Source: Spironucleus salmonicida
Taxonomy: Eukaryota
DNA length: 64,000 nt
Assembly: GCF_000497125.1 (NCBI RefSeq)
Contig: NC_090597.1
Location: 1,065,797-1,129,796 of the forward strand
Direction: 5' to 3'
The notes beneath the pieces were generated by a model. The model was not told where the DNA came from. It made no database searches and was given only the letters and a program-made list of their open reading frames with translations. This document shows, in pieces, positions 21,350 through 62,187 of this stretch. A program made the position numbers and the translations under genes. Positions within the stretch are counted from its first letter, which is position 1, and the number at the start of each line of letters is the position of its first letter.

Positions 21350-23128
21350 ATGTCGAGCTCGTGTACTGCTGAAGATTTAACAACCTGTGACGAAAAATTC
21401 TTCTGTCTTATCGCCGGTGAAGAAGCAGATAAGACCTATACTTGTACCGCCTGTGCTTCCCCATGCGAAAATTGCGAAACTGCTGCTACCACCTGCACAA
21501 GCTGCATCAATGGTTTCAAGGAACCAGTTAATAACGTATGCACAGAGTGCAAAGATGCATTTTTCCCTTCAGGTGAAACTCCTCCTACCACGTGCACCGC
21601 CTGCGACGCGAAATGCGCAACCTGCACAGGAGTTGAGGCCACCTCCTGTTAAACCTGCACAAACGGTAATTCGTTAACTGGAACTACCTGTTCCGCCTGT
21701 GTTTCAGGAGAAACCATGAAGTGCACCTGTGGCTCCGCTACTAACTGCTCGACTTGCGATTCCACTGATATGACAAAATGCGCCGTCTGCGCGAATGGCA
21801 ATTTCATTTCTGAGAATGTCTGCACAGAGTGCGTAGCTGATCAGCCCACCTCTTGCGCGTGCGGTACCGCAGTTAACTGCGCAACCTGCGCCGATAACAT
21901 GAAATCTTGCGCTAGCTGCAACGGTAACTATGACTTTTCTGCAGATACTCCTTGCTCGAAATGCAAGGCCAAGTTCTTCGAGAGCGAAACCGAAGGAACT
22001 AAAACCTGCGAAGCCTGCGACGCGAATTGCGAAAATTGTGAGATTTCTGCGACGGCCTGCACGAGCTGTCCCGTTGGTTCTGGGCTCAAAGAGAAAATAT
22101 GCAAAAAGTGCTCTGCGAACTGCGTGGAATGTGGTGCGGACTCTGATGTCTGCACATAGTGCGATGATAGCTCAGCTCTAAGCGAAGGTGCGTGCATCAA
22201 AAACTGCACCAATGACACTGACTGCATCGCCAACCAAATCTGCGACACCACCTGCTAGGACTGCACCAGCAACTGCGCAACGTGCGAGGGGGCCGTCACA
22301 ACCTGCAAAACCTGCCTCCCTGAATTCGGAATCAAAGACTTGACCACGTGCGTAGCTTGCACTGAAAACTGCGCAGCTTGCGCAATGGACTCAACGGTAT
22401 GCACAGAATGCAAAAATGGCAATATCTTGAATACAAATGTTTGTACTGCCTGCACGGAAAACATGGAAACCCAGTGCAAATGCGGCGAGCTGATCAACTG
22501 CGCCACGTGCGATTCTGCCGATGCCAGCAAATGTAAGTCGTGCATTGCCAGTTACAAGGCTGGTACTGACGGTGCCTGCAATCTTTGCGCCGACGGCTAC
22601 TTCATGGATGGTGAAAAATGCGGTAAATGCGGCGAAAAATGCTCCAAATGTGAGAAAGACGCCAACACGTGTACTGTATGTGCGGAAGCTTATGTAATGA
22701 GCATAAATCAGACCTGTGAAGCAAAATGCGGCTCCCTAAATGAGAACTAAGCCTGTGTTGATGGAAAGGCGGTTGATTGCGGTGCTGAAGGCCAAATTAC
22801 TGGTTGCAAGTGCGGTGCCGCGATAAACTGCTTTGAGTGCGATAAGTCAACGCCATAAGCTTGTGGCAGCTGCCTTGTTGCGTACAATTTTGAGAATTCT
22901 GTTTGCAGTTCGTGCAAAGACCTAGTTAGTACGCCTATAGGCGAATTTTGTATACTTTTATAACCTGAAGCCGAAAAATCTAGCAACAAAATCTCTGGAG
23001 GTGCCATTGCAGGTATAGTCATCGCAGTTATTGTGGTAGTCGCTGCTATCGGTGGCGGTGTCTTCTGGTACATGAAAAAGTCCAAAGCTTCGTCTACCTC
23101 GAGCAGATCCGATGCTGCTATGCAATGA
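21350..23128 (+). CDS. Cysteine-rich membrane protein (CRMP), 592 aa
   Basis: Intact code-6 ORF with CXXC repeats, [29 protein letters not shown] and tail MKKSKA. Confidence 0.9.
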
Positions 23129-23804: not shown

Positions 23805-25668
23805 AGTAGTAAGTGACCCGTAGATAAAGTATGATTTCGTCATCTCCAATTTTACAAAAGGGAAGTCATGATTATGGTAGCAGCGCGTACATTAAAAGGA
23901 TTTGAATGTTTTGAAACTGAAGTTGACAAGAGGCACACTTTTACTCTGTAGTATTTACTACTAGTATTATCTTATAAAATGTGGAACTGTTCGATTAACT
24001 ACTTCAATTATGGTTACGCTCTCATTTTACCATTTATAATATAATAATTAATTGATCCTCGTCTATGTATTTATAAACCGGTTATAATAATTGTGTTGTT
24101 TATTTTTAATGAGTCTGCAGTATCTTAGTAATATTAATATTATACTTTATCTAGTACTTATATTAAACCATACTCTTGTTTAATTTACTTCCTATGTGTA
24201 ACTATTGTTGAATTCCTTTCCTATTCTTAAACATGCTTAAGATCTGCTTTCTCAGTAACTATTACAATATATTTAACTTTATACTTCCCACCAGGACTTA
24301 AAAAATGAATTACAAATCGATGCAAGATCTTTTCTAAAATAATATGATGTATTACCCCTTCTTTCTTATATAACGTTATCTCTTGTTAAGCATTTGCTGT
24401 CTTCTAATACTTTAGCAATGTAAGGATCTTATTTATAAATAATACCTTTCTTATCGAATCCTACTGATACTTAATATTACACATCAGAATTATTAAGATG
24501 TTTTACTATTACATGTGTAACCCATAATTTGCTGAGCATTTCTTTTGTGTATAAAATTATTTAGTGTTCCTCCTCCTAGCGTTAGAATATATTAACTAAA
24601 TTTTATACTCTACGCTCATGCAATACTTACTCCTATTATTTTTACTTTTTAAGAACGTCTAATTCCTCCAAAGTATTTATAATAATTCGCCATCTCCTTT
24701 CGAATAGCTTCATAATTGTTTTCCTCTAGGTATTTTTATTATTATTCTATACTGTCTTTATTAGGACTAAACTCTTTGCCATATTCAAGTAAGAAGTCCA
24801 TAATAGTTGTTATAAAAGGCTGTCTTGTGGGTAACCTGTCAAGATTAAGTTAATTAGAAGTTTTACAACTTTTGAACAGTGTAATACAAACTTCTCATTA
24901 TTTAAATTAACGCCATGATCGTTCGCTTAAATTCTAGCTAGTAATGTTTCGCTAACTGTGCCACTTTATTAAAAGATGGTCGTCAAATCATAATCTTTTA
25001 TAAAATTAACAATGTAGCATTCCCGGATAGAAAAGCTAATAGTACTAGAAACCGTCTAATAAAGTTAAGTTTACTCTTATAAATTAATATAAATTATAGC
25101 TGATTTATAAAAGCAGTTACTAAGTATTCTTTCTAAGCGATTCTATGTTTCCTATTAGTTTAATGGATGGTAGGTTAAACCTGTTTCTGCTTGTACTTTC
25201 TTAGTAGTTATTTTGAATTTAGGAATTATTTTACCTTACACTCTTCCGGTTTGTGCATTAACTGAATGACAGATTGCAAAACAGTTCTACGTTTAATATA
25301 ACACTTATTATTCTATACTCTTCGTGCAATTCTTCATATATATTTTTAATGAACATCTACAGAAATGAGTTTATAAATATAATTCTTCATAAATCAAATT
25401 AAATAGCTTGTTAAGTATCTAATATTATTAGTAGTATGCAATACGTACTAAAAGCAAAGACTTGTTAAAGTCATTTTCAAAATATACAATCCTTTTAGAG
25501 CCGTGTTGCTCCCGTAAAAGGCTTGAATGTTTTAAAAATAACTTTCCCAAGATTTATACCTTTAGTAAGTATTATATAATACTGCCAGTTCTATCCCATA
25601 GAATCAAAAGTAGAATTGGTCTCTCTTAAGTTTTGAAAAATAGTGATCAACTCTTAAACTTAAAAAAA
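23805..25668 (+). repeat. Left terminal inverted repeat of element A
   Basis: Reverse complement of 32973-34836, same length, with a few clustered mismatches. Starts AGTAGTAAGTGACCCGTAGAT. Confidence 0.95.
24252..25646 (-). CDS. TIR-encoded reading frame, possible divergent DDE integrase (left copy)
   Basis: Mirror copy of the TGA-free frame at 32995-34389. Coordinates were derived from the TIR mapping. Confidence 0.4.
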
Positions 25669-25792
25669 CATTACTCTCAGATTCGAATTGATCAGCCTAT
25701 GGTTTAAAATAGAATTCATTTTAATCAGATAAGACCAAAAAAGTAAAAGCATAAATTTGCTATTTTAAAAACATTTTTTTTAGTCTAATAAA

Positions 25793-28700
25793 ATGGAACA
25801 CAACCACACAGCACTTGTATAATCAAACATTAAGGGTATTCTACAAAAGCTGCAGTAAGTTACATAACAATACGTCAAGAGGGAGTTATCTCTTTAAGAG
25901 TACTACCAAAAATAATAGTAATACAAGTTATATATTCATCATATTAAATTATTGAAAAATAAACTAGTTCAAATATCAAAGGATAATTTAAATGATTCTT
26001 AAACTAAACTATTAAAACAAGAAATTAATAAGATAAGGAAGATCTGATCGTAATAACAATCAGATAAAATTGATATAGATTAATACAAGAAATATTAAAA
26101 AGATTACAAGCATATATCTATTTTAAAAGATTAAATAAAGTAGAACAATAATTAAATATCACTCATACTAGAAAAATAAATTTCATCTGTATATAAAAAC
26201 AAATAGATTAAATTATTAAGAACTAAAACAGAAAAGTATAATGAAATGATCAATAATCTAAACGATAGGGTTTAAGGAGTTGTCTCATAGAAAATAATTA
26301 GATAGTTGAATGACATAATTACTAAAATTAATTAGACTCAAATGCTTTGGTCAATGAATAAGTAATTGACTATGATTAATTTAATGTAGAAGATGTTACC
26401 TTTGCTGAAAGAATTAATGGAGAGTTCAACTTACTATAGATGATGCTTCCTCGTATTGAATCGATAGAATAATTTTTAAAGGAATTCGATAGGAATACTA
26501 CATTCTAAATTTATACAGAACAACCTTTGATAGGTTAGTAGATAAATATGAGCGGATATGTGAACTCATTTATTTTTACAAAAATATAATTTATTGGTCA
26601 ACATGGTAAGCTTATACCGTTTAGGTTACTATTTTAAAATTAAGAGACTAATATTTTAAAAGAAATCTTTACTGAAATAATAAGAAGCAGTATAAAGTAT
26701 TTCGGTGTGTAAATAAATGAGAATGAGTTAGTATCATTTTCAAATATTGGAATTAAAAAGTTTAAGGACTTGACATCGATAAAATAGTTAATTAACTGTT
26801 TGAAACACTTGATACATTCTATAAGATGTTTAATGAATGGGATCCGACTTATGACTACGGATTTTAAATAGGCTTACTTCGCAAAATTTCAGGAAATGCA
26901 TATGAAGAAGATAAATAAATAAAATATCTTTATAAAGGATCAATATTCTTTGTTAGAAATAATGATGAAAAATATTTATATGCAGCAATAATTTCAGCAT
27001 TCATTAAAAAAAACAACTTATTGTTAATGGTAAATATACTTTAAAAATTAATAATTAAATATACATGATTCCTAAAAATGCATTCAGTCATGGAACATAA
27101 CTGAGAAACGATTCAATAAATAATAAAAGTTAAAACTTATATTTATTTACTTAGTTATTATTTGGATTTATAAGCATTGTTGGAGATGATTTATCAGGGG
27201 AGGAAATAGTTTAAAGAGCAGAAAGCGTATTCGAATTAAATATACTAAGATTAACATTAGCAAATTAAAATGATATCTTACCATCTCGTACAGAAGATTT
27301 ATTACTTGTTCAAAACAAAACAGCGAATTACAAAGGGCATTACAATGTAATTATGGAATATAAATAATACGTAAATACTATCAAACCACTCTACAAAGAT
27401 TATAATTATTTTTATGAACATAGACTGTTTACATACCGTAAAAACAAATGTAAAAACTGTGTTCTAGTAGGAGCAGTTGTTCAAGAATATTATTGTTAGC
27501 TCTGTTGTTACAAACATGAATTGGATTAAAATAATATGAATCATTAATGCGAGAATTGCAATATTAAATTAAACCATGAACCTAATACTAAATGCTTAAA
27601 AAGATATAATGATATTTATTAATTATTTACGCCTTTTGTTAATTGTGGTAGAGTTCATAGTAGATCAAATAGATGTTATGCAAAATTATAACATGATGAG
27701 CTATACTTTAAAAAGGGGTTGCTTAAGAAAGATTAAAAGTCATACGTAGTTTGGGATATTGAAAGCTACTTTGAAAACGTTCCAGAAGAATTAATAGATA
27801 AAGCTTCAATGCAACACATACCGTTTTTAGTATCTTGGTATATAATGAAATATGATAGAGCGAAGAATTAATATACTTAACAAGACTTCTTTTATAAAAA
27901 CAACCTTACATTTATACAAGATGGTAACTTTACTCTATCAAATGATTAATTCCTAATTAAAATTATTGATCATATCAAAATTGTAGCAATGAAATATAAA
28001 GTATACGATTTCTACTGTCACAATGCAGCTGCGTACGATAACTATTTATTACTATCTGAATTATCAAAGTACGGAGTTGAAAACTATAAAACTGATAGTA
28101 TAATTAATAATATCAAACTACTTCAACTAAAATTGATAATATATATTTTAAAGATTCATTTAGAATCATTCCTATGCCACTGTCTAAATTAAATAAAGAC
28201 TTAGATTTGAGACTTGTTGTAGGAAAATAACCTCAGTCATATACATATCTAATTAAAAATATGTCTGATTCATTTATTAATAGAGGAAGTATACTAATGG
28301 CTATAAAGCAACTTGTAGATTCAAACACCCTTTAGTTAAAACATTTCAATAACTTATCAAAAGATGAGTTTAATTAATATGTAATTGATTATGGTCATAT
28401 TGACTATATTACTTAATACATAAACTACTGCATTCAATACTGTTTCGTTTTAGCTGTAGCAATAAGGAAGTAAATTGAAATCTCACTTCAGGAATAAAAA
28501 GTCAACATCATTAATTATTTAACAGCACCAGCAATGGCCATAAACTTATATACTCATAATTGTGTTTCATAATTGTAAAATGGATTCTAAGATTTAAAAC
28601 ATAATAAATCTAAATGTAAATACAAGCTGTCTCAATTAATTTAATAAGATATTTAATCAACAAATAAATTATTAGATACTGGTTTTAATTAAATATCAAA

Positions 28701-30654
28701 TATTTTGTATAATTAATAATTCAAAGGATCAAGATACAACATTGATAGAGTGTTCACGACTGATAATAAGAAATATGGTCTTGAGTTAGATGGTACCTTT
28801 TATAATGGATTAAAAGAACTAAGTTGCAAAGATGAATACCATATATTATAACAATAAAGATTAGAAGCTTATAATAATAATAATTAATATTTAAATAGTA
28901 AGATGGAAGCCAACAGCTTTGAATAAATATTTCATGTAACTGACAAGCAGTGTATACAATTCGAAAAAGATAACAATATAAAGATAGAAGTACCTAAACG
29001 TTTTGACATAACCAACAGATCAATCTTGACTGAAGGAAGAGCATAGTGCTTTACAGATCACATGAAAATAAACAAGAAGAAATTTAAGATGTATGGAATT
29101 GATTTCACATCACTGCATCCATCTGCAATGGTATTTTGAAACTTGTCATTAAGAGATTTGGTTATTTAAACGCATTACGGGAACACTGTTTATGATTCAA
29201 AGATACACGATAAGTATAATATTAATTAAATCAAATTTAAAATAGATTATAAGTATATTGGTTAATTAAAGTTGTATGTTAAATAGATTCCAAGAATCAT
29301 TAACGCTGAAACAAGACTGTAGTACTTCTTATAAGGATGTGATAAACATAAAAGATTGATCTAAATCAAATATTAAATGCTTCCTCCATAATTATTAAAA
29401 TACCCATTTTTAGGAACTAATATTTGCGGTAAGTTACTATATCCACTTTCTAGTACATGTTCAGGATAGAAATGTTTAGATGCAAACAATCATACACGTT
29501 GCAACCACAATGAAGATGAAATAATACATAAAGGATTCTGGCATGAAACTGAATTGATAAATGCTTTATACGAAGGATATAAGTTCGGAGACATATACGA
29601 GACACATACTTACTAAATATCAAGTTTTAATGATAACGAATATTAAGGAGGAGATTTCATTAATTCATAGATGTTCAACTAGACACTGAACTCAGATGAA
29701 GATGATTATAAGGATGAAACTGTACTAAAACAATTAGCAAATGATTGTGACTTTGATTATATTTATAAAGATGGTATAGCATCAATCAAATAAAAAAGAT
29801 GAATTTGAATATAGATAAATCAAACTAAATTAAGGAGTAAAAATTTTTTATAAGTTGTTATTAAATGCAACGTATGGTAAGATAGGTCAGAATGTTGTAA
29901 GACCAACTGAGTCATTTGCCAAAGGTGAATTCCTTTTCGGCATGCATGATGAAGAGTTACATAGGGATTATAAAATTGTATTTATTAGATAAGGTATGAG
30001 TAAGAATATTTATACATACGAAGAAGAATTATAATAGACATAAAGAACTTAAGCAAATGCATCCTTAGCAGGAACGACAACAGCAGTAGCAAGAACTATG
30101 CTTAACACATTAATAAGATATGTAAATGATGAACTAAAAGGAGTTGTTTTATATGCTGATACAGATTAAGTTTATTGTGTTTTGGATAGATCAAAGTTCC
30201 TAAACCTAACTTCAGTAACCTTCAAGAATACATACTCTTGCAAATGCGAATAGAAGCTTGGTCCAAATGAATGGGTTTGTATAGGAGCAAAGCCATATGC
30301 ATACACAGACCGAGTTAGATATGCATATACATCAAATGGTATCACATTAGATAAAACAGGTATTATTGAAGCAGATGAAGGGAAGCTTGCTCATGTATTC
30401 GATATTTATAAATCAATATTATTTGATTAAATATAATTTAATGAGGATGATATTATTTAAATGAAAGACTCAAACACTGAGACAAAAGTGAAACAGGAGT
30501 TAAACTTTATAAGAAATAATAAAATATATAACATATATACTCATACAAGATATAAAGTAATTAGATAATAGTAATAAAAGAGGCTTTTGACTTTAGTTCA
30601 AGACCTGATTAAATATCAACATTGCCTTTTGGATATGATAAAGTATAAGCGTGA
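25793..30654 (+). pseudogene. Protein-primed family B DNA polymerase polyprotein (Polinton type), disrupted
   Basis: Motifs in order: WDIES (ExoI, 27752), HNAAAYD (ExoII, 28019), FKDSF, DFTSLHPSAM (motif A, 29101), KLLLNATYGK (motif B, ~29852), YADTDQ (motif C, 30152), GAKPY, C-terminal TLPFGY. Contains several frameshifts and in-frame TGA (e.g. 29137). Confidence 0.92.
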
Positions 30655-30732
30655 TTCATGTAATCCATTTTGGATTCCGATTCACTTTAGCGAATTACTT
30701 TAGTCGCTCATTTTTTGTATTAATAAAACAGC

Positions 30733-31801
30733 ATGGAAAGCAAAGCTTCCCGGACGCCTTCAGCGCTCATGGAGTACAATATCCAATCAGACGAAATTAA
30801 ATTTTTGAAATTAAAAAAAATGAAATAATGAGTTACGGTTATGGTTATTTTGGACTGATGGGTTCAGCATGAACAGGAAAAACGTATTCAATGAATAAAA
30901 TAAATTAAGCATATTAAGATTAAAGTAAACTATCAAAGTATAATTTAGATGATGCTCATTTAAATAATGGAGCTATAACTCATACGTTCTTCTGAAGTCC
31001 AACTATAGATTGTGATTAAACTTATTAAAAATCAAAAGGCAAAGACAATAGAATTAATATACCATTTGTTGATTTGAATGGAATAAATTCAAAATAAAAG
31101 CTATTAATGTTATGCTAAGAATTATAGAAAATGAAAACCATTACAAATCTATCACTGATAATACAAGAATAAATACTAACTACTTTAAAAGATAAAGAAA
31201 TTAAAAAATGGAGATCAAAAATATTCTTTCAAGTTTTCAAAAACATACTTTCACAATTCGAGTGGGTAAAGCAATAGTAGTAAGAATGTTTAGTTTTATA
31301 TAAAGACTGTTTAGGTGATGATGTGGATTAGTATATGTAGTTGCTGTATGAATAAATTGGATTGCGTTATAATAAATATTGGATACGAAGATAAAAATAG
31401 TTTTATTCTTAGATGACATGAGCGGGAGTTCAGTATTTCAAACTACAACTGAATCTAATTTCTATAAACTAATTATTTAAAGAATACATCTTGGGATTTG
31501 GGCGACCATTTAATGTTTACATTCTATTAAGATACTGTATGGATCTTTTAGATAGTTGTTTACAGCTTTCTTGTTAATGAAAGGTCTCAAGGAAGAACAT
31601 CTAAAAGATATCTTTGAGGACATTAGAAGGATAAGAAGTTAAGAATTTAAATCAAAATAGTTTATTGAATTGTATAATAGAACCATTGGCTATTTTGGAA
31701 ACGACTATTCGAAGAGAGGACAGTTCAAATATAGTTTTTTATATATAATTATTTAACCAGACCCAATGATCTTTATAAACTTTGATAAGCAAGTTAAGTG
31801 A
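30733..31801 (+). pseudogene. A32/FtsK-HerA-like DNA packaging ATPase, disrupted
   Basis: Walker A GSA*TGKT (TGA at 30870, likely from GGA). Walker B IVLFLDD (~31400). RIHLGIWATIQ resembles the RHxxx...Q arginine-finger motif. C-terminal FLYIIIQPDPMIFINFD. Confidence 0.8.
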
Positions 31802-31861
31802 GTATCTGTTAATTTTTATCTACATTTAAATGATAGTACCTTCATTTTTTTAACCAAAGAA

Positions 31862-32269
31862 ATGGTAAAGTTCATAAATATAAAACTACTGATTGAAGAA
31901 AACAAAAGAGACGATCTCGCATTCATCGAAGTAATAGTAAACAATGAACCCATAAAAATAACTAAGGAAACTAGTACTAAGCAGAAATTTGAAAGTAATA
32001 AAGTATATAACAAAGTTGAATAAATAAGATTGCTTAATAAAGATAAACAAGTAATAGCTGTGTTACCTTAAGAACTTGCACAATAGAACTATTATCATAC
32101 TCCTGATGTCCTTAGCACTAAGCAAGCCTATAGCAAGTATATAATAATTAACAAGATTGAAACATGTCATTTTGGTACATACTATAAACAAATCTAATAT
32201 TTATTAGATGAAAAACAATTGAAAACTATTTAAGCTATTGAGCCAGCTTCAAGAGAACTATATTTCTGA
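31862..32269 (+). CDS. Element-encoded hypothetical protein (135 aa)
   Basis: Intact code-6 ORF MVKFINIKLLIEE...SRELYF* inside the element. Confidence 0.6.
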
Positions 32270-32386
32270 TCCAAAAGGATTTAAGCAAAAAAAAATAAAA
32301 ACCAAATAACTATGGTCGCCTTTGGGCTTCCACTTCTTAAAGATCATAACGTATATTTTAAAGAAACCTTTTTTTAATAAACAAAA

Positions 32387-32944
32387 ATGGATCGATAAGC
32401 AATAGTTAAAGATCAAGAAGCAAAACCAACTTACAAAGAAGCGATATAGGTTCTGTAAAAGTAAGATAGCTTAGAAGACTATTCAAAAGAGGTTATCAAG
32501 TATATTGAAGTACTTCCAAAAAGTTCTGATGTTGAACCTCCAGGTAAAGTAAACTTCAGCCAAGCTAATTATAATAACATGCAATCGTCATTATTGAAGT
32601 TTGAAGAGGATAGTTACAATGCTAAGTTTGGATACTATAATAAAATACTAATAGCAAGATACATTTCCTTAGAACTAACACACAGACTGTTGTATGATAT
32701 GGTTGAATAAGTTGTAGCGTTGTCAGGGTATTGTTTTAAAGGCAAGAAATAGGATGACATTAGACTGTACAACACGATGATTATTTTAGATACAATTTTG
32801 TAAGAAAACTAATCAACTTCATCTAAACTATGTAAGATTTATTTATAAGAATTAATTAATAAACTTTTGAAAAACAATAAACGAAAAGATCTTATTAAGT
32901 TAGTTCAGAATCTATTTTAGATAGTAACTAAAATGTTTACGTGA
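32387..32944 (+). CDS. Element-encoded hypothetical protein (3' end uncertain, possibly frameshifted)
   Basis: MDRQAIVKDQEAKPTYKEAI... preceded by the same T-run/TAATAAA motif as the other element genes. Confidence 0.5.
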
Positions 32945-32972
32945 TGTGGAATCTGAAACTGTTTTTAAAACT

Positions 32973-34836
32973 TTTTTTTAAGTTTAAGAGTTGATCACTA
33001 TTTTTCAAAACTTAAGAGAGACCAATTCTACTTTTGATTCTATGGGATAGAACTGGCAGTATTATATAATACTTACTAAAGGTATAAATCTTGGGAAAGT
33101 TATTTTTAAAACATTCAAGCCTTTTACGGGAGCAACACGGCTCTAAAAGGATTGTATATTTTGAAAATGACTTTAACAAGTCTTTGCTTTTAGTACGTAT
33201 TGCATACTACTAATAATATTAGATACTTAACAAGCTATTTAATTTGATTTATGAAGAATTATATTTATAAACTCATTTCTGTAGATGTTCATTAAAAATA
33301 TATATGAAGAATTGCACGAAGAGTATAGAATAATAAGTGTTATATTAAACGTAGAACTGTTTTGCAATCTGTCATTCAGTTAATGCACAAACCGGAAGAG
33401 TGTAAGGTAAAATAATTCCTAAATTCAAAATAACTACTAAGAAAGTACAAGCAGAAACAGGTTTAACCTACCATCCATTAAACTAATAGGAAACATAGAA
33501 TCGCTTAGAAAGAATACTTAGTAACTGCTTTTATAAATCAGCTATAATTTATATTAATTTATAAGAGTAAACTTAACTTTATTAGACTGCTTCTAGTACT
33601 ATTAGCTTTTCTATCCGGGAATGCTACATTGTTAATTTTATAAAATATTACGATTCGACGACCCTCTTTTACTAAAGTGGCACAGTTAGCGAAACATTAC
33701 TAGCTAGAATTTAAGCGAACGATCATGGCGTTAACTTAAATAATGAGAAGTTTGTATTACACTGTTCAAAAGTTGTAAAACTTCTAATTAACTTAATCTT
33801 GACAGGTTACCCACAAGACAGCCTTTTATAACAACTATTATGGACTTCTTACTTGAATATGGCAAAGAGTTTAGTCCTAATAAAGACAGTATAGAATAAT
33901 AATAAAAATACCTAGAGGAAAACAATTATGAAGCTATTCGAAAGGAGATGGCGAATTATTATAAATACTTTGGAGGAATTAGACGTTCTTAAAAAGTAAA
34001 AATAATAGGAGTAAGTATTGCATGAGCGTAGAGTATAAAATTTAGTTAATATATTATAAAGCTAGGAGGAGGAATACTAAATAATTTTATACACAAAAGA
34101 AATGCTCAGCAAATTATGGGTTACACATGTAATAGTAAAACATCATAAGAATTCTTATGTGTAATATTAAGTATCAGTAGGATTCGATAAGAAAGGTATT
34201 ATTTATAAATAAGATCCTTACATTGCTAAAGTATTAGAAGACAGCAAATGCTTAACAAGAGATAACGTTATATAAGAAAGAAGGGGTAATACATCATATT
34301 ATTTTAGAAAAGATCTTGCATCGATTTGTAATTCATTTTTTAAGTCCTGGTGGGAAGTATAAAGTTAAATATATTGTAATAGTTACTGAGAAAGCAGATC
34401 TTAAGCATGTTTAAGAATAGGAAAGGAATTCAACAATAGTTACACATAGGAAGTAAATTAAACAAGAGTATGGTTTAATATAAGTACTAGATAAAGTATA
34501 ATATTAATATTACTAAGATACTGCAGACTCATTAAAAATAAACAACACAATTATTATAACCGGTTTATAAATACATAGACGAGGATCAATTAATTATTAT
34601 ATTATAAATGGTAAAATGAGAGCGTAACCATAATTGAAGTAGTTAATCGAACAGTTCCACATTTTATAAGATAATACTAGTAGTAAATACTACAGAGTAA
34701 AAGTGTGCCTCTTGTCAACTTCAGTTTCAAAACATTCAAATCCTTTTAATGTACGCGCTGCTACCATAATCATGACTTCCCTTTTGTAAAATTGGAGATG
34801 ACGAAATCATACTTTATCTACGGGTCACTTACTACT
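32973..34836 (-). repeat. Right terminal inverted repeat of element A
   Basis: Ends ...ATCTACGGGTCACTTACTACT. Inverted copy of 23805-25668. Confidence 0.95.
32995..34389 (+). CDS. TIR-encoded reading frame, possible divergent DDE integrase (right copy)
   Basis: 465-codon TGA-free frame, first ATG at 33304. THF...CFAIC could be a degenerate Zn finger. IQANDHGVNLNNEKF resembles SDNGxEF. FERRWRII is a candidate catalytic E. FDKKG lies near the C-terminus. Confidence 0.4.
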
Positions 34837-35966
34837 GTAGTATATCTTTGTGAAAATTAATTAATTCATATTTACGTTTATGTTTTCCTATTATCCTATC
34901 GACGGGTTATCTGTATGAATTGTGAACGATTTATTTTTATCAAATTCAAGGATAAACTATTGTACTGCTTCAATGTGTAGTAACCTCATTTAGTTAATCA
35001 TAAAATTGGCATTGATTCTTTCATCAAAATTAACGATAAGTATATTAAATGCATCATAATTTATTTATAACTATTTAATATTAACTGTCGATTACTATTA
35101 TTTAATTTTGGTAATTATATTTTGTAATTATTTAATTCTGTCTTCGGAAATGGATCCTTAAACCCTATCATTCATATTTTTAATTATTTATTTAAATTAC
35201 TCTATTTATGCTACTAGTAAATTAAATTATTTATCACGCCATTCTTTTGAAATAACATGTTAATTAAATTTATAATTATTGTTTAGTATTTTTAGATTTG
35301 CGTTATTTATTTCGTTTTATAAAATATTCATATGTTTGAATGATCTTTCGAATTCCTTGTATTTATCCAAATTAATATTATTGATGTGTTATTCTGTTTA
35401 AATCGATTTGATTTAGTTGATTTATTATTTTAATTTTTTAACTTGATAGATTGATAAATCATCTTTTGCTATTCTATTTATTTTTAATTCAGAATTTCAG
35501 GATGATAAAGTTATAATTTATATTGTTTTTACTTCATATTTGAAAAATGTTGGATCTAAAGAGTTATCTTTACTGCATTTATATTTTCTGTTAAGATCTT
35601 GTCGTAATTTAATCCCATTTTTTCATATATTAAACAAATATCTTTTTTGAATTCAATTTATTGGGGATTATATCCTTTCCATTTTTGGGGATAATTGAAA
35701 TAAATTATGTGTATTTATATTCTATTTTTGGAATTTTTGTTTTTTTAAATTTTTATATTCTATTTTGATGATTTTATTTGGTAAAACTAATCTGGAATTC
35801 AACTGAAAAATCCTGCACCGGGGCGGCCCATCCATACCCTCGATATCTTTAGAAATTGGGGCGAGGAGCGGACCATTTGATTGAGCACTGGTTTTTTACT
35901 GATTTGATTTTTTTTGAAATTTTGATTTCTCAATACTGTAGAAATCTACGGGCGGAAGGGACTACT
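34837..35966 (-). mobile_element. Truncated Polinton-like element of a second family (element B): one terminus plus the 5' part of the pPolB ORF
   Basis: Minus-strand terminus AGTAGTCCCTTCCGCCCGTAGAT. The ORF from 35618 aligns with the element A pPolB N-terminus (NDRVQG; FDERINANF...EFDKN...IFTKI versus FAERINGEF...EFDRN...IFTKI). Confidence 0.8.
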
Positions 35967-36226
35967 AACTATGGTTGTTCTTCCCCAATTTTACTTACCT
36001 GATGGCAATATATCATAGATTATTTTGCAAAAAAAATGACAGATATTAACTTTTATATTATCCTATAAATTATATTTTCCGCCATTATACAAGTTTTATA
36101 CAAATTGATTAATATATATTCTGAATCCATATAATTATATATTTTTATTTATATTGTAAAAGAAACTAAATACTTTATTCTATGCTTCAGTATTCATTAT
36201 TATCAGTTTACTCTACTTCTATAAAA

Positions 36227-39172
36227 ATGTCGAACTCGTGTACTGCTGAAGATTTAACAACCTGTGACGCAAAATTCTTCTGTCTTGTCGCGGTTAGTGA
36301 TGGTTCAGATACGACCTATACTTGTACTGCCTGCGCTTCCCCATGCGAAAATTGTGAAACTGCTGCTACCACCTGCACAAGCTGCATCAGTGGTTTCAAG
36401 GAGCCAGTTAATAACGTATGCACAGAGTGCAAAGATGCATTTTTCCCTTCAGGTGAAACTCCTCCTACCACTTGCACCGCCTGCGACGCGAAATGCGCAA
36501 CCTGCACAGGAAGTGCGGACAGCGCCTGCTAAACCTGCACAAACGGTAATTCTTTAACTGCCACTACCTGTTCCGCCTGCGTTTCAGGAGAAACCATGAA
36601 TTGCACCTGTGGCTCCGCTACTAACTGCTCGATGTGCGCAACTGATATGACAAAATGCGCCGTCTGCGCGAATGGCAATTTCATTTCTGATAATGTCTGC
36701 ACGGCATGTTAAGATAATTAACTGATTGCTTGCGCGTGCGGTACCGCAGTCAACTGCGCAACCTGCGCTACTGATAACATGAAATCTTGCGCCACCTGCA
36801 ACGGTAACTATGACTTTTCTGCAGATACTCCTTGCTCGAAATGCAAGGCCAAGTTCTTCGAGAGCGGTATAGAAGGAGCTAAAACCTGCGAAGCCTGCGA
36901 CGCGAATTGCGAAAATTGTGAGATTTCTGCGACCGCCTGCACGAGCTGCCCAGCAGGTTCTGGGATCAAAGACTAAAAATGCGAAAAGTGCTCTGCGAAC
37001 TGCGTGGAATGTGGTGCGGACTCTGATGTCTGCACATAGTGTGATAATAGCTCAGCTCTAAACGGAAACGCGTGCATCAAAAACTGCTCTACCAATGCCG
37101 ACTGCAGCTCCAGCCAAATATGCGACACCACCTGCAAGGACTGCACCAGCAACTGCGCAACGTGCGAGGGGGCCGTCACAACCTGCAAAACCTGCCTCCC
37201 TGAATTCGGAATCAAAGACTTGAACACCTGCGTAGCTTGCACTGAAAACTGCGCAGCTTGCGCAATGGACTCAACGGTGTGCACAGAATGCAAAGATGGT
37301 CATATCTTGGGCGAAAACACCTGTACTACCTGCATTTCAGGAGATACCAGTAATTGCACCTGTGGCAGCGCTACTAACTGCTCTACTTGCAATTCTATTG
37401 ATAAGACAAAATGCGGAGTATGCGCTAATGGTAATTTCATGGGTGAGAATATCTGCACGAGATGCTAAGATAATCAACCCACCCCTTGCGTATGTGGTAC
37501 TGCAGTTAACTGCGCAACCTGCGCCGATGATATGGCATCCTGCGCTACCTGTAACGGTGAATATGATTTTCATACTGTTCCTCCTTGCTCAGAATGCAAT
37601 ACAGGGTATTTTAAGAACTCTGATACCCCAAAAACCTGCACAAAATGCGACGCGAAATGCGCAACCTGCACAGGAAGTGCGGACAGCGCCTGCTAAACCT
37701 GCACAAACGGTAATTCTTTAACTGCCACTACCTGTTCCGCCTGCGTTTCAGGAGAAACCATGAATTGCACCTGTGGCTCCGCTACTAACTGCTCGATGTG
37801 CGCAACTGATATGACAAAATGCGCCGTCTGCGCGAATGGCAATTTCATTTCTGATAATGTCTGCACGGCATGTTAAGATAATTAACTGATTGCTTGCGCG
37901 TGCGGTACCGCAGTCAACTGCGCAACCTGCGCTACTGATAACATGAAATCTTGCGCCACCTGCAACGGTAACTATGACTTTTCTGCAGATACTCCTTGCT
38001 CGAAATGCAAGGCCAAGTTCTTCGAGAGCGGTATAGAAGGAGCTAAAACCTGCGAAGCCTGCGACGCGAATTGCGAAAATTGTGAGATTTCTGCGACCGC
38101 CTGCACGAGCTGCCCAGCAGGTTCTGGGATCAAAGACTAAAAATGCGAAAAGTGCTCTGCGAACTGCGTGGAATGTGGTGCGGACTCTGATGTCTGCACA
38201 TAGTGTGATAATAGCTCAGCTCTAAACGGAAACGCGTGCATCAAAAACTGCTCTACCAATGCCGACTGCAGCTCCAGCCAAATATGCGACACCACCTGCA
38301 AGGACTGCACCAGCAACTGCGCAACGTGCGAGGGGGCCGTCACAACCTGCAAAACCTGCCTCCCTGAATTCGGAATCAAAGACTTGAACACCTGCGTAGC
38401 TTGCACTGAAAACTGCGCAGCTTGCGCAATGGACTCAACGGTATGCACAGAATGCAAAAATGGCAATATCTTGAATACAAATGTTTGTACTGCCTGCACG
38501 GAAAACATGGAAACCCAGTGCAAATGCGGTGAGCTGGTCAACTGCGCCACGTGCGATTCTACCGATGCCAGCAAATGCGGGTCGTGCATTGCCGGTTACA
38601 AGGCTGGTACTGACGGTGCCTGCAATCTTTGCGCCGACGGCTACTTCATGGATGGTTAAAAATGCGTTAAATGCGGCGAAAAATGTTCCAAATGTGAGAA
38701 AGACGCCAACACGTGCACTGAGTGCACTACAACTTATGTAATGAGCATAAATCAGACCTGTGAAGCAAAATGCAACCCCTTAAATGAGAACTAAGCCTGT
38801 GTTGATGGAAAGGCGGTTGATTGCGGTGCTGAAGGCCAAATTACTGGTTGCAAGTGCGGTGCCGCGATAAACTGCTTTGAGTGCGATAAGTCAACGCCAT
38901 AAGCTTGTGGCAGCTGCCTTGTTGCGTACAATTTTGAGAATTCTGTTTGCAGTTCGTGCAAAGACCTAGTTAGTACGCCTATAGGCGAATTTTGTATACT
39001 TTTATAACCTGAAGCCGAAAAATCTAGCAACAAAATCTCTGGAGGTGCCATTGCAGGTATAGTCATCGCAGTTATTGTGGTAGTCGCTGCTATCGGTGGC
39101 GGTGTCTTCTGGTACATGAAAAAGTCCAAAGCTTCGTCTACCTCGAGCAGATCCGATGCTGCTATGCAATGA
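36227..39172 (+). CDS. Cysteine-rich membrane protein (CRMP), 981 aa; paralog of 21350-23128 with internal duplication
   Basis: Intact code-6 ORF. The last ~130 codons are essentially identical to the first copy. Confidence 0.9.
36482..38458 (+). repeat. Intragenic direct repeat, ~810 bp (36482-37294 and 37646-38458, offset 1164)
   Basis: Near-identical sequence. Identical ORF fragments at 36779 and 37943. Confidence 0.9.
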
Positions 39173-46371: not shown

Positions 46372-47566
46372 TTTGATTTTGGTAAAAATATATAGTAACT
46401 AGATCATTTTAATCTTATGCAATATTTAAAATAATTTAGTTTGTTATAGAAAATAAACTTCAGTTTGTATAAACTATACTATGTTTAAACATAGATCAAA
46501 AGACTAAAATAAAATACCAAAAATCTGTAGATTTTAAAAATTTATTAAATTAGTTAGTATAATAAAATAGTTAATTTTATTCCATAAGGATTGTATTAAA
46601 AAAATGAAAATATAGGTACAAAATTATTTTATATTTTACTTTCAGAATGCAATATTATTATAATTTCTAGATTTATCAGATATCTGTACTTTAATAAATT
46701 AATTTAATTAGTGGGTAAATTTCTCTCATCTTAAGCCACATCCTAGTTAAATCATTATTTGAGTGATATTAAAAACAATAGATAACGCGTGTTATATGCT
46801 ATATAACTAATAGTGAATATGGAATCTCTGTATATGTTAAATCATAACTAATATCTTAGTTCAAATTTATTGCAGCTGAACTATATAGTAAAATCTGTAT
46901 TTGTGTGTAAACTATTCAAACTTAAATTACATGTTTACATCCTAAATTTTATATAAAGTGATATTTATATGGATATAATTATTATATCAAATATTTTATT
47001 TACAAACTTTATCTATAGTTTATTATTATACTTCAACAAATATGTATTACGCTATGTGATGGTATTTTAAACGGGCCTTTCCCCAGCCTGATGTACGCTG
47101 CGTGCCTTTACTAGCAAACCCCTGCTCAGCCGAAAATCATGTCCTCAGTCTTAGTTATAGCGATAGGTATCTGAGTGATTCCTTTTTACTACATTACGCT
47201 GGCCAGGGTTTCGAAGCCCTACCGCTTTATTGCAGTATCCTATGTTGCCAGCCTTATTACCATTCGCGTCCATTTATCAGCCCTGCTCCGCCCTGGTAAT
47301 GCTCTGACACCAACGGCCCGGTCCTTCCAGGGCGCGTGCCTGGCGGAATCCAGCGACCTGGTGGTAGCGGCGGTTGGCGGGCTGAAACAGTACTCAGCCC
47401 CTACCGCACTCGGTGGAACCTACGAACCGACCGCCAAGCCGCTTTAGCCAGCACTGCTTGTGCGCATGTGCTAGCGCTCGGCCCTACCATTGCAGATCTC
47501 CGCTTCCTTTCCCATTCTGCGGGACACCTATTATATGGCATTACAGCCCGTACCCCAAAGATCACA

Positions 47567-48643
47567 ATGCTGGCGCTCCTCGCCGCTTCCACGCTGGCCT
47601 CCGGCTCCAACTACAGCGGGAAGCTGGGCCTCTCCCTCTCACCAAAGGTCACTTCCAACGTGTACGCCTTCGCTGGGCTGGACACCGCCTTCGAGCACCT
47701 GGCCCTCTGCAGGGACAGGGCCTTCGGGCTCGCGGACGGCAGGGTGCTTGCCTGGGGCAGGAACCTGTTCGAGGGCTTCACGTACTTCGAGGCTCCGAAG
47801 CCGCTGCGCCAGCTGGACGGCATAGCGGCGGTGAACATCTCCTGCGCGGACCACTTCCTGGCTGTCCAGACCGCCGCCGCAGTGCTCGTGCTGGGCCTGT
47901 TCCAGGGCACCAACCACACCGAAGTCGCGCTGGAGGTGCCGTTTGGCGGCCCGATAGCGCAGATCCTGGCCAGCAACAAGACGGTCTACCTCCTGAGCGA
48001 GGGCAGCGTCTTCACGACCGAGAATGGCGAGTTCGCCCCCTTGAAGGTGCCGTTCCCGGTGACCAAGTTGACTATTTTCGACGGCGTGCTGGCGCTCTAC
48101 AGCGGGATGGTGGTGTACGTCGCCAAGCGCGGCCGGTACGTCCGCCAGCAGGCCGAGTGCCTCCAGTTCACGAACGCGTCCACCTACCTGGACGCTGCCG
48201 GGGCGCTGTTCTACGACACGCTGCAGGTGGACTCGGGCGTCGCCTCCTACGCGCTGACCGCCGACGGCGTGCTGTACCTCAAGGGCGGCGACCTGTACGC
48301 CCTGGGGAGATCGGCGGCCGGCGAGCTGGGGTTCCAGGGCGTGGCCGAGCTCAGGCGGCACATGGCGTACTCGGTGGGGGCGGTGTTCGCCTTCGGGGAC
48401 TACGCCTTCGTGACCGGGGTGCAGCCGGCGAGCGGGTTCAGGATGCCGGTCTGGGGGTACATCGCCCTCGGGGGCGTGGGCTGCACGGCGCTGCTAGTGG
48501 GCCTCGTGCTGCTCATCGTGTGGCTGAAGAAGACGGGCAGGATCAGCAGGTACCCGATCCTCGAGGAGAAGGCGCACCTGATCTCCGTCGACCGGCTCAC
48601 GGACGCAGAGTGCACGACGCGGGAGGTCAGCGCGACCTACTGA
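47567..48643 (+). CDS. Type I membrane protein with RCC1/BLIP-II-like repeats (358 aa)
   Basis: Signal MLALLAASTLA. Motifs DGRVLAWGRN and GDLYALGRSAAGELG. C-terminal TM and short tail. Confidence 0.75.
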   Translation: MLALLAASTLASGSNYSGKLGLSLSPKVTSNVYAFAGLDTAFEHLALCRDRAFGLADGRVLAWGRNLFEGFTYFEAPKPLRQLDGIAAVNISCADHFLAVQTAAAVLVLGLFQGTNHTEVALEVPFGGPIAQILASNKTVYLLSEGSVFTTENGEFAPLKVPFPVTKLTIFDGVLALYSGMVVYVAKRGRYVRQQAECLQFTNASTYLDAAGALFYDTLQVDSGVASYALTADGVLYLKGGDLYALGRSAAGELGFQGVAELRRHMAYSVGAVFAFGDYAFVTGVQPASGFRMPVWGYIALGGVGCTALLVGLVLLIVWLKKTGRISRYPILEEKAHLISVDRLTDAECTTREVSATY

Positions 48644-48663
48644 GTGAGAGGCTTCGAATCACG

Positions 48664-48894
48664 TCAGAGCAGCCCCACGAACTGCACGCGGGACGCCTGG
48701 ATGGTGGTGACGCCGGCGGGGGCCAGCTCCGTGCTGGAGAGCCTCTGCGCGGCGCCGTCCAGCACCAGGTTGCCGTAGAGGTCGTAGGAGAGCAGCGTCC
48801 CGGTGAAGTGGGCGCCGGTGTCCGTGACGACCGCCACCTGCCGGCCGACGTAGGCCGCGAAGGCGTGGGTCTGCTGGGCGAGGAACTCGGACAT
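48664..48894 (-). CDS. Sm/LSm-family protein (76 aa)
   Basis: Sm1 motif YVGRQVAVVTDTGAHFTGTLLSYDLYGNLVL and Sm2-like GVTTIQASRVQFV. Confidence 0.85.
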   Translation of the reverse strand: MSEFLAQQTHAFAAYVGRQVAVVTDTGAHFTGTLLSYDLYGNLVLDGAAQRLSSTELAPAGVTTIQASRVQFVGLL

Positions 48895-48937
48895 TGTGGA
48901 GGGGAGGTGATCCCGGAAAGTGAAGGAATTTATCGAC

Positions 48938-50206
48938 TCAGTGCACGCGCTCCAGGGGCTCGGCGCGCGTCTCCACGGCGGTGATGATCTCGTCCTCCGC
49001 GGCCCGGTCGACGGTCTGTTTGAAGTCCTCGGCCGGGCAGTCCGCGTCTGGGGCGGCCTGGTCCTCGGGCTTGTGCCGGCCCATCCACTTGCCGTGCAGG
49101 ACCTGGTTGGGACGCTTCAGGAAGGGGATGACGAGGAGGACGTTGTTGAAGATGAGCACCCCGCAGGTGACCACCACGAAGCCGGCCCACTTGACGGGCG
49201 TCGACTGCGGGTTCCAGGGCTCCCAGCCGAGCGAGATGGACATGATCCAGACCAGGATGGGCTTCAGCGAGCCGAAGGTGGTGCGGGTGGCGGCCGAGAC
49301 GTGGTTGGTGATCTCCATGCCGGTGAAGTTGAGCACCAGCACGAACAGCGCGTAGAAGATGTGGTACAGCACCTGCTTGTACGAGATGGACATCTGGTAC
49401 GCCCAGCCCGCGAGGTCCTCGAAGTTGGACTTGGGTATCGTGGTCGAGAGCGGGTCCGTCACGATGTTGAGAATGGGGAGCGCGATAGCGCAGAAGATGA
49501 GCCCCCAGCCGCCCTCGTTCGCGACGCCCATGAAGCCGATGGTCTGGATCCGGCGCAGGGACAGCTCCTCGGCCAGGTAGAACCAGGACGCAATGAAGCA
49601 GCCCAGCAGCGTGAAGATGATGCCCATCGCGGGGTTGAGCGCGACCGAGTTCTGCTGGGTGAAGAGGATGCTGCCGAGGGCGATGATGGTGGCGCCCAGG
49701 AAGAGGATCACGAGCCCCATCAGCTGGGGCAGGTCGAAGCGCTGGCGGTAGTCGCGGAAGATGCAGAGCGAGACGAGGGCCACGAAGACCACGGTCATGT
49801 TGGTCAGGATCGCGTACACCGAGGGGTCCGAGTAGTAGTTCCCGATGTTGAACATCGTGGAGGACACCAGGTCGAAGATGGTCGGGATCGCGAACAGGAA
49901 GGTGTGCGGGATGAAGCGGTAGAAGGTCTTGCCCTCCTTCAGGGGCGTCTGGGGCAGCGCCCTGTGCTTCCGCACGAACTCGCTCGTGAGCCAGATGAAG
50001 ATGCAGCAGAACTCGCCGATGAACATGAAGAGCGTCTGCATGTAGGGGTGGTTGAAGGGGACCGCCGCGCAGGTGGGGCAGGTGGGCAGCGTCTCGAGGA
50101 ACATCGCCTTCGCGACGAGGCCGCAGCCGGTGGAGCAGACGAGCCCCGAGACGATGTAGATCCAGACGACGAGGGAGATGGCCGGTTTCTTGCCTGTGGC
50201 CGCCAT
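48938..50206 (-). CDS. DMT-superfamily transporter (SLC35F6/nucleotide-sugar transporter-like)
   Basis: About 10 TM helices. Motifs FNHPYMQTLFMFIGEFCC, PTIFDLVSS and ITNHVSAATRTT. Confidence 0.85.
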   Translation of the reverse strand: MAATGKKPAISLVVWIYIVSGLVCSTGCGLVAKAMFLETLPTCPTCAAVPFNHPYMQTLFMFIGEFCCIFIWLTSEFVRKHRALPQTPLKEGKTFYRFIPHTFLFAIPTIFDLVSSTMFNIGNYYSDPSVYAILTNMTVVFVALVSLCIFRDYRQRFDLPQLMGLVILFLGATIIALGSILFTQQNSVALNPAMGIIFTLLGCFIASWFYLAEELSLRRIQTIGFMGVANEGGWGLIFCAIALPILNIVTDPLSTTIPKSNFEDLAGWAYQMSISYKQVLYHIFYALFVLVLNFTGMEITNHVSAATRTTFGSLKPILVWIMSISLGWEPWNPQSTPVKWAGFVVVTCGVLIFNNVLLVIPFLKRPNQVLHGKWMGRHKPEDQAAPDADCPAEDFKQTVDRAAEDEIITAVETRAEPLERVH

Positions 50207-50484
50207 TTGTGAAAATGCCGAGAGTGCTGGACGCCCTAATATGAGCTAAAACCCGCTCCCGAAACTGATTCTTAATTTGTGTTACATGACCTTATTAGAA
50301 ATACCGATTACCGCAGATATGTATACTTTGCAGGCAGGGAGCGGTCGCTAATATCCGCTGCATCGCCCCGAATACCTATATTTCCACCTTCCTATTTTAC
50401 GGTAAAAGTGGTCTGGGCGCCCAGCGCGGAGCGGGATAGTTTCGGCGTGGCGGCCTGCCCGCGCGGCCCTTCCGCACAAAAACC

Positions 50485-50498
50485 GCCCGTTCCACTCC
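50485..50498 (+). promoter_or_regulatory. C-rich ATG-proximal promoter motif GCCCGTTCCACTCC
   Basis: The same 14-mer precedes the thioredoxin ATG (51818-51831, minus). Related TTCC(A/G)CTCC-type motifs precede the EF-hand, DRC7 and Nup98-like genes. Confidence 0.55.
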
Positions 50499-50502
50499 CA
50501 CA

Positions 50503-51369: not shown

Positions 51370-51469
51370 GTGACCGCCGTTTTACGCACTCGCGCCCTAA
51401 CCGGCCAGTAACACCTGCGCCACGGGGACAGACGGGCCTGCGGAACTGCGCGCCAACGACGAAACGACC

Positions 51470-51811
51470 TCACTCCATCTGCTCCTCGAGCCACCTGCGC
51501 ATCGGCTTCACGTCGCGCCAGAGGCTGTCGTACTCGGCGACGCGCTGCCCCCCGCGGAAGAGCACCAGCCCCGGGACGCCGTCGACGCCATGCGTGTCGC
51601 AGGTGACGCGGTCCAGGGCGCAGTTGAACTGCGCGAGCGCCACTCTGGCCGGGGCGGCGTCCGAGAGGTCGTAGAAGCGCGGGGAGAGCTGCTGGCAGTG
51701 CTTGCAGTGCGCCAGGTAGAACTTCACGAAGGTGTAGCGGTTCGCCTGCAGCGCCTCCTCCAGGCCCGCGGCGCTCTGCATGTTCAGCACGTGTGACAGG
51801 ACGGCCAGCAT
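51470..51811 (-). CDS. Single-domain thioredoxin/PDI-like protein (113 aa)
   Basis: FVKFYLAHCKHCQQLSP active-site region and CDTHGVDGVPGLVLF cis-Pro region. Confidence 0.85.
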   Translation of the reverse strand: MLAVLSHVLNMQSAAGLEEALQANRYTFVKFYLAHCKHCQQLSPRFYDLSDAAPARVALAQFNCALDRVTCDTHGVDGVPGLVLFRGGQRVAEYDSLWRDVKPMRRWLEEQME

Positions 51812-52082
51812 TGATGTGGAGTGGAACGGGCCGAGTGCTCAGAGCCGCGCCCGGGACGAACGGTGACCGACTGCCGACCTACACCATCGCAATTAGACAA
51901 AACTCCAATTTACCTATTTTTCGATAATATATTGCCCATAATCCTCCGAATCTCTATTAATCCCCTATAAGACTACTCAATTTCATTTCCTTACTGTTCA
52001 CCTTCCCAAAATATTTTTCATATTTATTACCATTATTATATATAATATAGTAATTCCCCTTCCACTCCGCAATTTGCTAAAA

Positions 52083-62167: not shown

Positions 62168-62187
62168 CGTGATTCGAAGCCTCTCAC

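What the first reader, a model, noticed from the sequence alone, without database searches (positions are those of the whole stretch)
32995..34389. A ~465-codon frame, possibly a divergent integrase, lies inside both TIRs
Seen: the TIRs are unusually long and each carries an outward-pointing TGA-free frame (mirror copy 24252-25646). Inference: THF..CFAIC, IQANDHG.NLNNEKF, FERR and FDKKG loosely resemble the Zn-finger/DDE/C-terminal pattern of Polinton integrases. The D-to-E spacing (~73 aa) is atypical. Element B has its terminus only ~350 bp from the pPolB start, so the TIR of element A may have expanded by copying one end onto the other.
Basis: inference. Interest (0 to 1): 0.7.

Follow-up and report, generated by a model that had tools for sequence, protein, structure and literature searches.

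The report
Broken non-integrase gene between palindromic ends
The long reading frame in both end-repeats of this DNA-polymerase element of a fish-parasite protist is not an integrase but the cut-off, frameshifted back half of an unknown gene, held between two short palindromic end pieces; the intact gene, found in environmental protists, may be a DNA-nicking enzyme of a type so far known only from bacteria and archaea.

Summary
The frame is real (464 codons, code 6, both arms of a 1,864-bp inverted repeat; Spironucleus salmonicida). It is not an integrase. It is a chimera. Codons 1-72 lie over the element's true, non-coding 239-bp TIR. The rest is the 5'-truncated C-terminal half of a ~900-aa gene found intact in a code-6 metagenome contig (43% over 188 aa). 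Codons ~261-320, which end at FERR, are off-frame for that gene; the proposed zinc ligands and the D of NDHG are not conserved; the third genomic copy breaks the frame; substitutions look neutral. The gene piece is cut at both ends by ~155-bp AGTAGT...ACTACT modules, which also cap other pPolB copies and stand alone. The missing N-terminal half has Rep_trans-like motifs in order (D, K-x-E, DxD, YDK, RLE), but profile, pairwise and fold tests gave no support and were underpowered: a hypothesis (about 35%). The scan noted a Rep_trans-like fungal family before (e1-7578534); no sequence look-alike was returned.

The parts
32995..34389 (+). The reported 464-codon TGA-free frame: a chimera of non-coding terminal DNA (codons 1-72), in-frame gene remnant (about 78-260), off-frame stretch (about 261-320) and in-frame remnant again (about 330-440)
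24252..25646 (-). Mirror copy of the frame in the left arm
23805..25668 (.). Left arm of the 1,864-bp inverted repeat; starts AGTAGT; joined to the 3' flank of a cysteine-rich membrane protein gene
32973..34836 (.). Right arm; ends ACTACT; joined to a truncated second pPolB gene; no target-site duplication shared with the left end
32973..33211 (.). True right TIR of the pPolB element (239 bp; mirror 25430-25668); other copies end here
33058..33211 (.). Inner 154-bp AGTA(G/T)T...ACTACT module, a near full-length imperfect palindrome (mirror 25430-25583)
   Evidence: DNA fold z -6.6, 0 of 200 shuffles
33212..34678 (+). 1,467-bp remnant: C-terminal part (about residues 371-874) of a ~900-aa gene of unnamed family, cut at both ends by modules, three frame changes (near 33776, about 33945-34001, about 34314-34379); mirror 23963-25429
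34679..34836 (.). Outer 158-bp module with AGTAGT termini at both ends, 62-63% like the inner one, internal palindrome decayed (mirror 23805-23962)
   Evidence: fold z 0.08
25430..33211 (+). Degenerate 7.8-kb DNA polymerase B element proper (polymerase in several broken frames, about 26440-30808, then small ORFs of unknown family to 32944)
   Evidence: PHROG DNA polymerase E 2.9e-11 for 29696-30805; assignment as protein-primed rests on motifs and context (inference)
34837..35686 (-). 5' fragment of a second, divergent pPolB-type element, cut exactly at the outer terminus

Best explanation
The frame is a pseudogene chimera, not a working integrase gene. Shown: the element proper is a 7.8-kb degenerate pPolB element ending in a ~155-bp palindromic AGTAGT...ACTACT module. 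Outside each end lies the same 1,467-bp piece of an unrelated ~900-aa gene, cut at both ends by such modules and closed by a second module. The long open frame exists because this DNA was once coding, because a one-base difference near 33776 (absent from the third copy) happens to offset a later frame change shared by all three copies, and because code 6 has only one stop codon. Inferred: two modules inserted in (or recombined into) a copy of that gene; recombination between like modules attached the piece to the left end of the pPolB element; this junction was duplicated with its host gene to a third locus; later the enlarged left end was copied onto the right end, probably through a linear or panhandle intermediate whose ends were the outer AGTAGT termini, and the new right end was joined to a different target without a paired target-site duplication. 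The remnant now drifts neutrally.
For: Homologues: 4 of 6 phmmer hits among 1.84 billion representatives are metagenomic; 2 of 172 candidate stretches confirmed in JGI contigs; L102 has one 914-codon code-6 ORF. Right arm versus L102: homology starts at 33226, 15 bp outside the module; best frame switches at about 33770 and again before 34379; 43% over 188 aa, E 3e-32. The third copy matches homologue P0006 over 155 aa in one frame (E 2e-22), while the window copies need two frames. The reported frame is back in register after about 33976 (score 78, 0 of 500 shuffles, against L101). Third copy versus right arm in homologous frames: 9 synonymous and 30 non-synonymous changes over 280 and 1,085 sites; left versus right arm 3 and 11. 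Short-read contigs of two runs of one sample cross 33776 without a gap, so the window's state is not an assembly error. Terminus motif: 42 genomic matches against 1 for the reversed control; 20 module places listed. The N-terminal half of the gene was not found in the genome (3 matches, all C-terminal).
Against: The segment 33304-33774 alone shows 4 synonymous to 5 non-synonymous changes against the third copy (ratio about 0.3), and the 361-aa ORF is held as a predicted protein in public sets, so a short-lived or residual function of the N-terminal domain is not excluded. The order of events is inferred from three copies only. The C-terminal in-frame match is significant against L101 but weak against L102 (26 of 500 shuffles). 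No fold was obtained for the remnant domain, so its fold is unknown.
Confidence: 0.87

Rival explanations
1. One reading: a divergent Polinton-type DDE integrase encoded in both TIRs, serving the pPolB element.
For: The element has pPolB and AGTAGT ends but no recognised integrase. N188-D243-Q279 has a D-54-D-35-E-like spacing, and N188 aligns with a D that is invariant in 8 of 8 metagenomic rows.
Against: D243 is R/S, Q/S or E/V in homologues; H94, C96, C98 and C126 are not kept. Q279 and E316 lie in the off-frame stretch. The third copy breaks the frame. No rve match. Neutral substitution pattern.
Confidence: 0.04
2. The remnant is a regular accessory or replication gene of a larger linear virus-like element of the same family, whose ends were the outer modules; the inner modules are later insertions.
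For: Both outer ends are AGTAGT termini of the same motif family; the gene points outward in both arms; homologues use code 6, as protist-virus genes can.
Against: The gene is cut at the outer module as well (34679), about 30 residues short of the homologue's end. None of the other pPolB copies examined carries it. L102 shows no such terminus in 4,119 bp. No relative in IMG/VR in 4 scans.
Confidence: 0.12
3. The long inverted repeat is an ordinary host rearrangement (inverted duplication kept alike by gene conversion) and owes nothing to the element's replication.
For: The window holds another near-perfect 4.4-kb inverted repeat of host genes; differences between the arms are clustered.
Against: The repeat ends exactly at an AGTAGT terminus on both sides, with unrelated flanks, and it is AT-rich (27-29% GC) where the host repeat is 62-68% GC. 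This rival concerns the origin of the mirror copy only, not the nature of the frame.
Confidence: 0.25

Closest known systems
Polintons/Mavericks (definition from bioRxiv 10.1101/2023.08.22.554363, passages read)
   Same: Family-B DNA polymerase remnant, terminal inverted repeats (inner TIR 239 bp, within the 100-1,500 bp range given), AGTAGT ends (this terminus as a Polinton trait is recalled, not from a call).
   Different: 7.8 kb (11 kb with the outer blocks) against 13-25 kb; no integrase, capsid, ATPase or protease recognised; no paired TSD; the ends are ~155-bp palindromic modules that also occur alone; all copies examined are broken.
MITEs / foldback elements and composite transposons (recalled)
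   Same: Short non-coding near-palindromes with conserved termini, dispersed, bracketing foreign DNA; one copy has a 5-bp duplication (CTATT).
   Different: A duplication was seen at only 1 of 20 places; no cognate transposase found; the modules double as ends of a polymerase element.
Rep_trans rolling-circle initiators (PF02486; pT181 RepC, phage RstA and gpII) and archaeal Rep-Arvir (PMC5714925, PMC13107129, passages read)
   Same: The intact homologue L102 has D136, K218-I-E, D249-Q-D251, Y303-D-K and M-T-R-L-E351 in the order of motifs N', I, III and IV; three central spacings are 31, 36 and 16 against 31, 34 and 15 in RepC; MxRLELSY is kept in both metagenomic homologues.
   Different: Motif I has D for R, motif II is poor, motif III lacks E at +5, Y-to-E spacing is 48 against 23; ~550 further C-terminal residues; no statistical or structural support here; this part is absent from the window.

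Membership tests
Retroviral-type (rve) integrase | HHCC zinc finger N-terminal to the core | tested here: not met
   H94, C96, C98 align with V/F/I/N and C126 with V, I in homologues
Retroviral-type (rve) integrase | D,D(35)E catalytic triad in one frame | tested here: not met
   D243 not conserved; Q279 and E316 in the off-frame stretch
Retroviral-type (rve) integrase | Profile match to rve | tested here: not met
   no hit at E 1 in Pfam or in the six-frame genome search, whose control rang in 7 of 14 genomes
Retroviral-type (rve) integrase | RNase H fold | tested here: inconclusive
   models at mean pLDDT 33 and 37; no fold match
Polinton/Maverick | [quoted passage not shown] | tested here: met
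   PHROG DNA polymerase E 2.9e-11, polymerase and exonuclease motifs in broken frames; no Pfam or PDB hit; 'protein-primed' is inferred
Polinton/Maverick | Terminal inverted repeats of 100-1,500 bp | tested here: met
   239-bp inner TIR; 1,864-bp composite
Polinton/Maverick | 5-8-bp target-site duplication | tested here: not met
   outer flanks TGCATA and GTAGTA; inner flanks are mirror images; no second junction for the empty site
Polinton/Maverick | Integrase gene | tested here: not met
Polinton/Maverick | Capsid, packaging ATPase and protease genes | tested here: inconclusive
   four small ORFs (31107-32944) gave no meaningful Pfam hit; three of them no PHROG hit; not folded
Rep_trans initiator (for the intact homologue L102) | Five motifs N'(D), RxD, T/SxY/ExG, YxKxxE, W/LxRxE | tested here: inconclusive
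   order and central spacing fit, letters fit only partly; motif list from PMC5714925
Rep_trans initiator (for the intact homologue L102) | Sequence or profile similarity to known members | tested here: inconclusive
   no Pfam hit; own HMMs and hhalign at shuffle level, but the Rep_trans-versus-gpII positive control also failed; RepC pairwise 99 of 500 shuffles as high, while RepC recognised 3 of 9 controls
Rep_trans initiator (for the intact homologue L102) | TBP-like fold with the tyrosine on a strand | tested here: inconclusive
   low-confidence model; predicted strand and helix order is compatible; no match
Rep_trans initiator (for the intact homologue L102) | Metal-dependent nicking with a 5'-phosphotyrosine | not testable with these tools
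   needs a biochemical assay
MITE / foldback element (the ~155-bp module) | Short, non-coding, conserved inverted termini, dispersed | tested here: met
   42 terminus matches against 1 control; 20 places; strong hairpin in 2 of 3 folded
MITE / foldback element (the ~155-bp module) | Target-site duplication | tested here: inconclusive
   5-bp CTATT at 1 of 20 places, read by eye from 12-nt flanks

The most novel reading that the evidence does not exclude
The remnant belongs to an undescribed family of ~900-aa proteins of code-6 protists whose N-terminal half is a Rep_trans/TBP-fold tyrosine nickase, a class reported only from bacteria and archaea. In the boldest form these proteins drive a eukaryotic rolling-circle or rolling-hairpin element, the ~155-bp AGTAGT palindromes are its nicking origins, and the same modules were taken over as ends by integrase-less pPolB elements and used to move host surface-protein genes.
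Probability: 0.33. Interest if true: 0.8.

Novelty: new variant of a known kind. Interest (0 to 1): 0.4.

Why it matters
As reported (an integrase in TIRs) the finding does not hold, and the two public hypothetical proteins at these loci are best read as pieces of a pseudogene. What remains is modest but real: a diplomonad pPolB element family built from portable palindromic end modules, which explains the long TIR and may shuffle surface-protein genes. I found no paper on it: 'Spironucleus' + 'Polinton' returned one unrelated listing, and PMC10120064 does not mention Spironucleus in its main text (supplements not seen). If the intact homologue proves to be a Rep_trans nickase, that class would extend to eukaryotes; PMC13107129 describes it as bacterial with an archaeal sister family, and searches listed no eukaryotic case by title or abstract start.

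Tried and rejected
My own D-54-D-35-E reading (N188, D243, Q279) and an RT-like reading of GYPQDSLL: both fall in non-conserved or off-frame sequence. Word-indexed protein searches found only the genome's own proteins and one fragment and nothing for the L102 N-terminal half among longer proteins. ESM Atlas with homologue P0013: no usable hit. IMG/VR scans: nothing; the 3 loci were seeded by one 8-residue word; the one I opened (L123) is an unrelated 220-aa ORF, and the other two matched the same 50 residues. GTDB genomes: 0 of 75 candidates. Phage and plasmid tblastn: none. PDB sequence search: only SufB at E about 1. Both structure models were low-confidence and the three fold searches gave only noise. 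A post-hoc Rep_trans motif pattern matched L102 and 0 of 20,000 shuffles but also 0 of 8 true initiators, so it was discarded as overfitted. Expression: no RNA holder listed; two possible RNA runs laid nothing on the block; this is no evidence either way. The other half of a TSD at the CRMP empty site was not found. Scan look-ups by sequence and by relatives returned nothing.

Full report
Setting. The window is G000:C2:1065797-1129796 of a 14.5-Mb genome; a database hit names the organism as Spironucleus salmonicida. It reads TAA and TAG as Gln, so TGA is the only stop and long frames are easier to get by chance than in the standard code.

The observation. Both frames are open for 464 codons. 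The inverted repeat is 1,864 bp (23805-25668, 32973-34836) with 14 differences. In 2,000 base shuffles of the arm, 12 gave a run as long in any frame. The first ATG is at 33304. So the frame is real and needs an explanation.

The 'TIR' is a composite. Of 11 genomic matches to the arm, 8 cover only its inner 260 bp or less; the outer block occurs three times: the two arms and C2:898731-900270 (97%). Each arm holds two termini: AGTAGT at the outer end and again at 25430/33211. A 23-letter terminus motif has 42 matches in the genome against 1 for the reversed control. The termini come in inward-facing pairs 96-159 bp apart; 20 such places were listed among the loci held at that point. The inner module (33058-33211) is a near full-length palindrome (z -6.6), as is a free-standing copy on C5 (z -5.7); the outer module has lost this (z 0.08). 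Other pPolB copies end at, or begin with, such a module (C6:16637, C8:1056594, C5:971341, C2:841700, C6:1064999); the right end of the longest other copy has none. The element proper is therefore 25430-33211 with a 239-bp TIR, and the rest of each arm is a 1,467-bp piece plus a second module. Codons 1-72 of the reported frame lie over the non-coding TIR.

What the piece is. Pfam, PHROGs and NCBIfam gave nothing meaningful. A full phmmer scan gave 6 hits at E 0.001 or better: two from this genome and four short metagenomic fragments. Two JGI contigs were confirmed out of 172 candidates. Both read in code 6; L102 has one ORF of 914 codons. The right arm matches L102 residues 371-874 in three frames: the reported frame from 33226, another frame from about 33768 to 34001, and a third from 34379 to 34693. 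Against L101 the reported frame is in register again after about 33976 (0 of 500 shuffles); against L102 that stretch is weak (26 of 500). The match begins 15 bp outside the inner module and ends at the outer one, so both ends of the gene are cut by modules. The third copy has one more base near 33776; its 240-aa ORF follows homologue P0006 for 155 aa in one frame, where the window copies need two. Short-read contigs cross 33776 without a gap, so the window's state is real. The long frame thus comes from two frame changes that offset each other. Substitutions are close to neutral: 9 synonymous and 30 non-synonymous over 280 and 1,085 sites against the third copy, 3 and 11 between the arms; only 33304-33774 leans towards constraint (4 and 5). 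The N-terminal half was not found in the genome.

The integrase reading. In the homologues THFCRC aligns with EVFVIN, CFAICH with CYIVVH, CWVIIH or VFAVIY, and D243 with other residues. E316 of FERR (33940) is at the end of the off-frame stretch. DK of FDKKG is kept in L101 only. My own alternative triad fails likewise. No rve match was found in the genome. The fold test was inconclusive: pLDDT 33 for the frame, 37 for a nine-row alignment of homologues, with no structural match.

How the mirror arose (inferred). The left arm's junction with a CRMP gene is shared with the third locus over 5.4 kb at 95.8%, so it is the older end. The arms differ by 0.75%, the third copy by 2.7%, and the arms share the base loss near 33776. 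The right arm ends exactly at the outer AGTAGT and abuts a truncated second pPolB gene; the flanks share no duplication. Plain gene conversion between arms, which earlier scan notes report for GC-rich repeats of this genome (e1-7274599, not tested), may have helped but does not explain the exact end point.

What the intact gene may do. The part missing from the window has, in L102, D136, K218-I-E, D249-Q-D251, C287-L-E-F, Y303-D-K and M-T-R-L-E351. The Rep_trans motifs are D, RxD, T/SxY/ExG, YxKxxE and W/LxRxE (PMC5714925, passages). Three central spacings are 31, 36 and 16 against 31, 34 and 15 in pT181 RepC; the best local alignment pairs the expected segment; MxRLELSY is kept in L101. Against this: the alignment score is not significant (99 of 500 shuffles), own profiles scored it at shuffle level though their positive control failed too, Pfam was silent and my motif pattern was overfitted. 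I put it at about one in three. PMC13107129 (passages) and PMC13595969 (passages) give the class as bacterial with an archaeal sister family. An earlier scan note reached a similar reading for a fungal family (e1-7578534, seen after my note; not tested; no sequence look-alike). L102 has no module in its 4,119 bp, so a link between this protein and the modules is not shown.

Membership. The frame is not an rve integrase. The element works like a Polinton-derived, protein-primed linear replicon but fails membership on integrase, TSD and size (definition from 10.1101/2023.08.22.554363, passages); capsid genes are untested by fold. Other papers were seen as search listings only; no supplements were read.

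Verdict. Observation partly confirmed; integrase refuted; end-copying supported. Interest 0.4: a pseudogene chimera in a modular, apparently undescribed pPolB element family, with an open lead to a possible eukaryotic Rep_trans-type nickase.

Noticed in passing
L042:2288-5775 (G000:C2:1008288-1011775): Two modules bracket a 3.5-kb cassette with the element's last ORFs and a host cysteine-rich membrane protein gene; similar ORF pieces with a module about 2.3 kb away occur three times on C9. Modules may move surface-protein genes.
   Followed up: partly
L039:4876-4900 (G000:C9:144876): One module end has AGT repeated several times more, as slide-back initiation by a protein-primed polymerase would leave (mechanism recalled).
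   Followed up: no
window 28700-28850 and L026:400-1902 (-): The polymerase carries an insert like a PD-(D/E)xK/VSR nuclease (weak REase_MTES_1575, E 0.022); such inserts are described for some pPolB2 (10.1101/2023.08.22.554363, passages).
   Followed up: partly
window 30769-32305 as query: At least ten partial copies lie near contig ends and start at 30769 or 30817: a subtelomeric amplification of the element's right part.
   Followed up: no
window 25736-26475 as query: Five other loci on C2 hold the 5' part of the polymerase ending at the same base; the four mapped lie next to CRMP-like sequence.
   Followed up: partly
L092:8725-8758 and L094:7917-7950: 34-bp palindromes made of two terminus motifs with no interior.
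   Followed up: no
G000:C6:1065155-1066189: A 1.0-kb segment with 125-bp inverted ends (89%) abuts the left module of the longest other copy; that copy lies in a 10-kb, 98.8% inverted repeat.
   Followed up: no
window 47020-51884 and 58947-63810: GC-rich (62-68%) near-identical inverted repeat of host genes.
   Followed up: no
window 21350-23128 and 36182-39172: Two paralogous CXXC-rich membrane protein genes flank the element in the same orientation; the second shows the empty site of the left junction at about 39825.
   Followed up: partly
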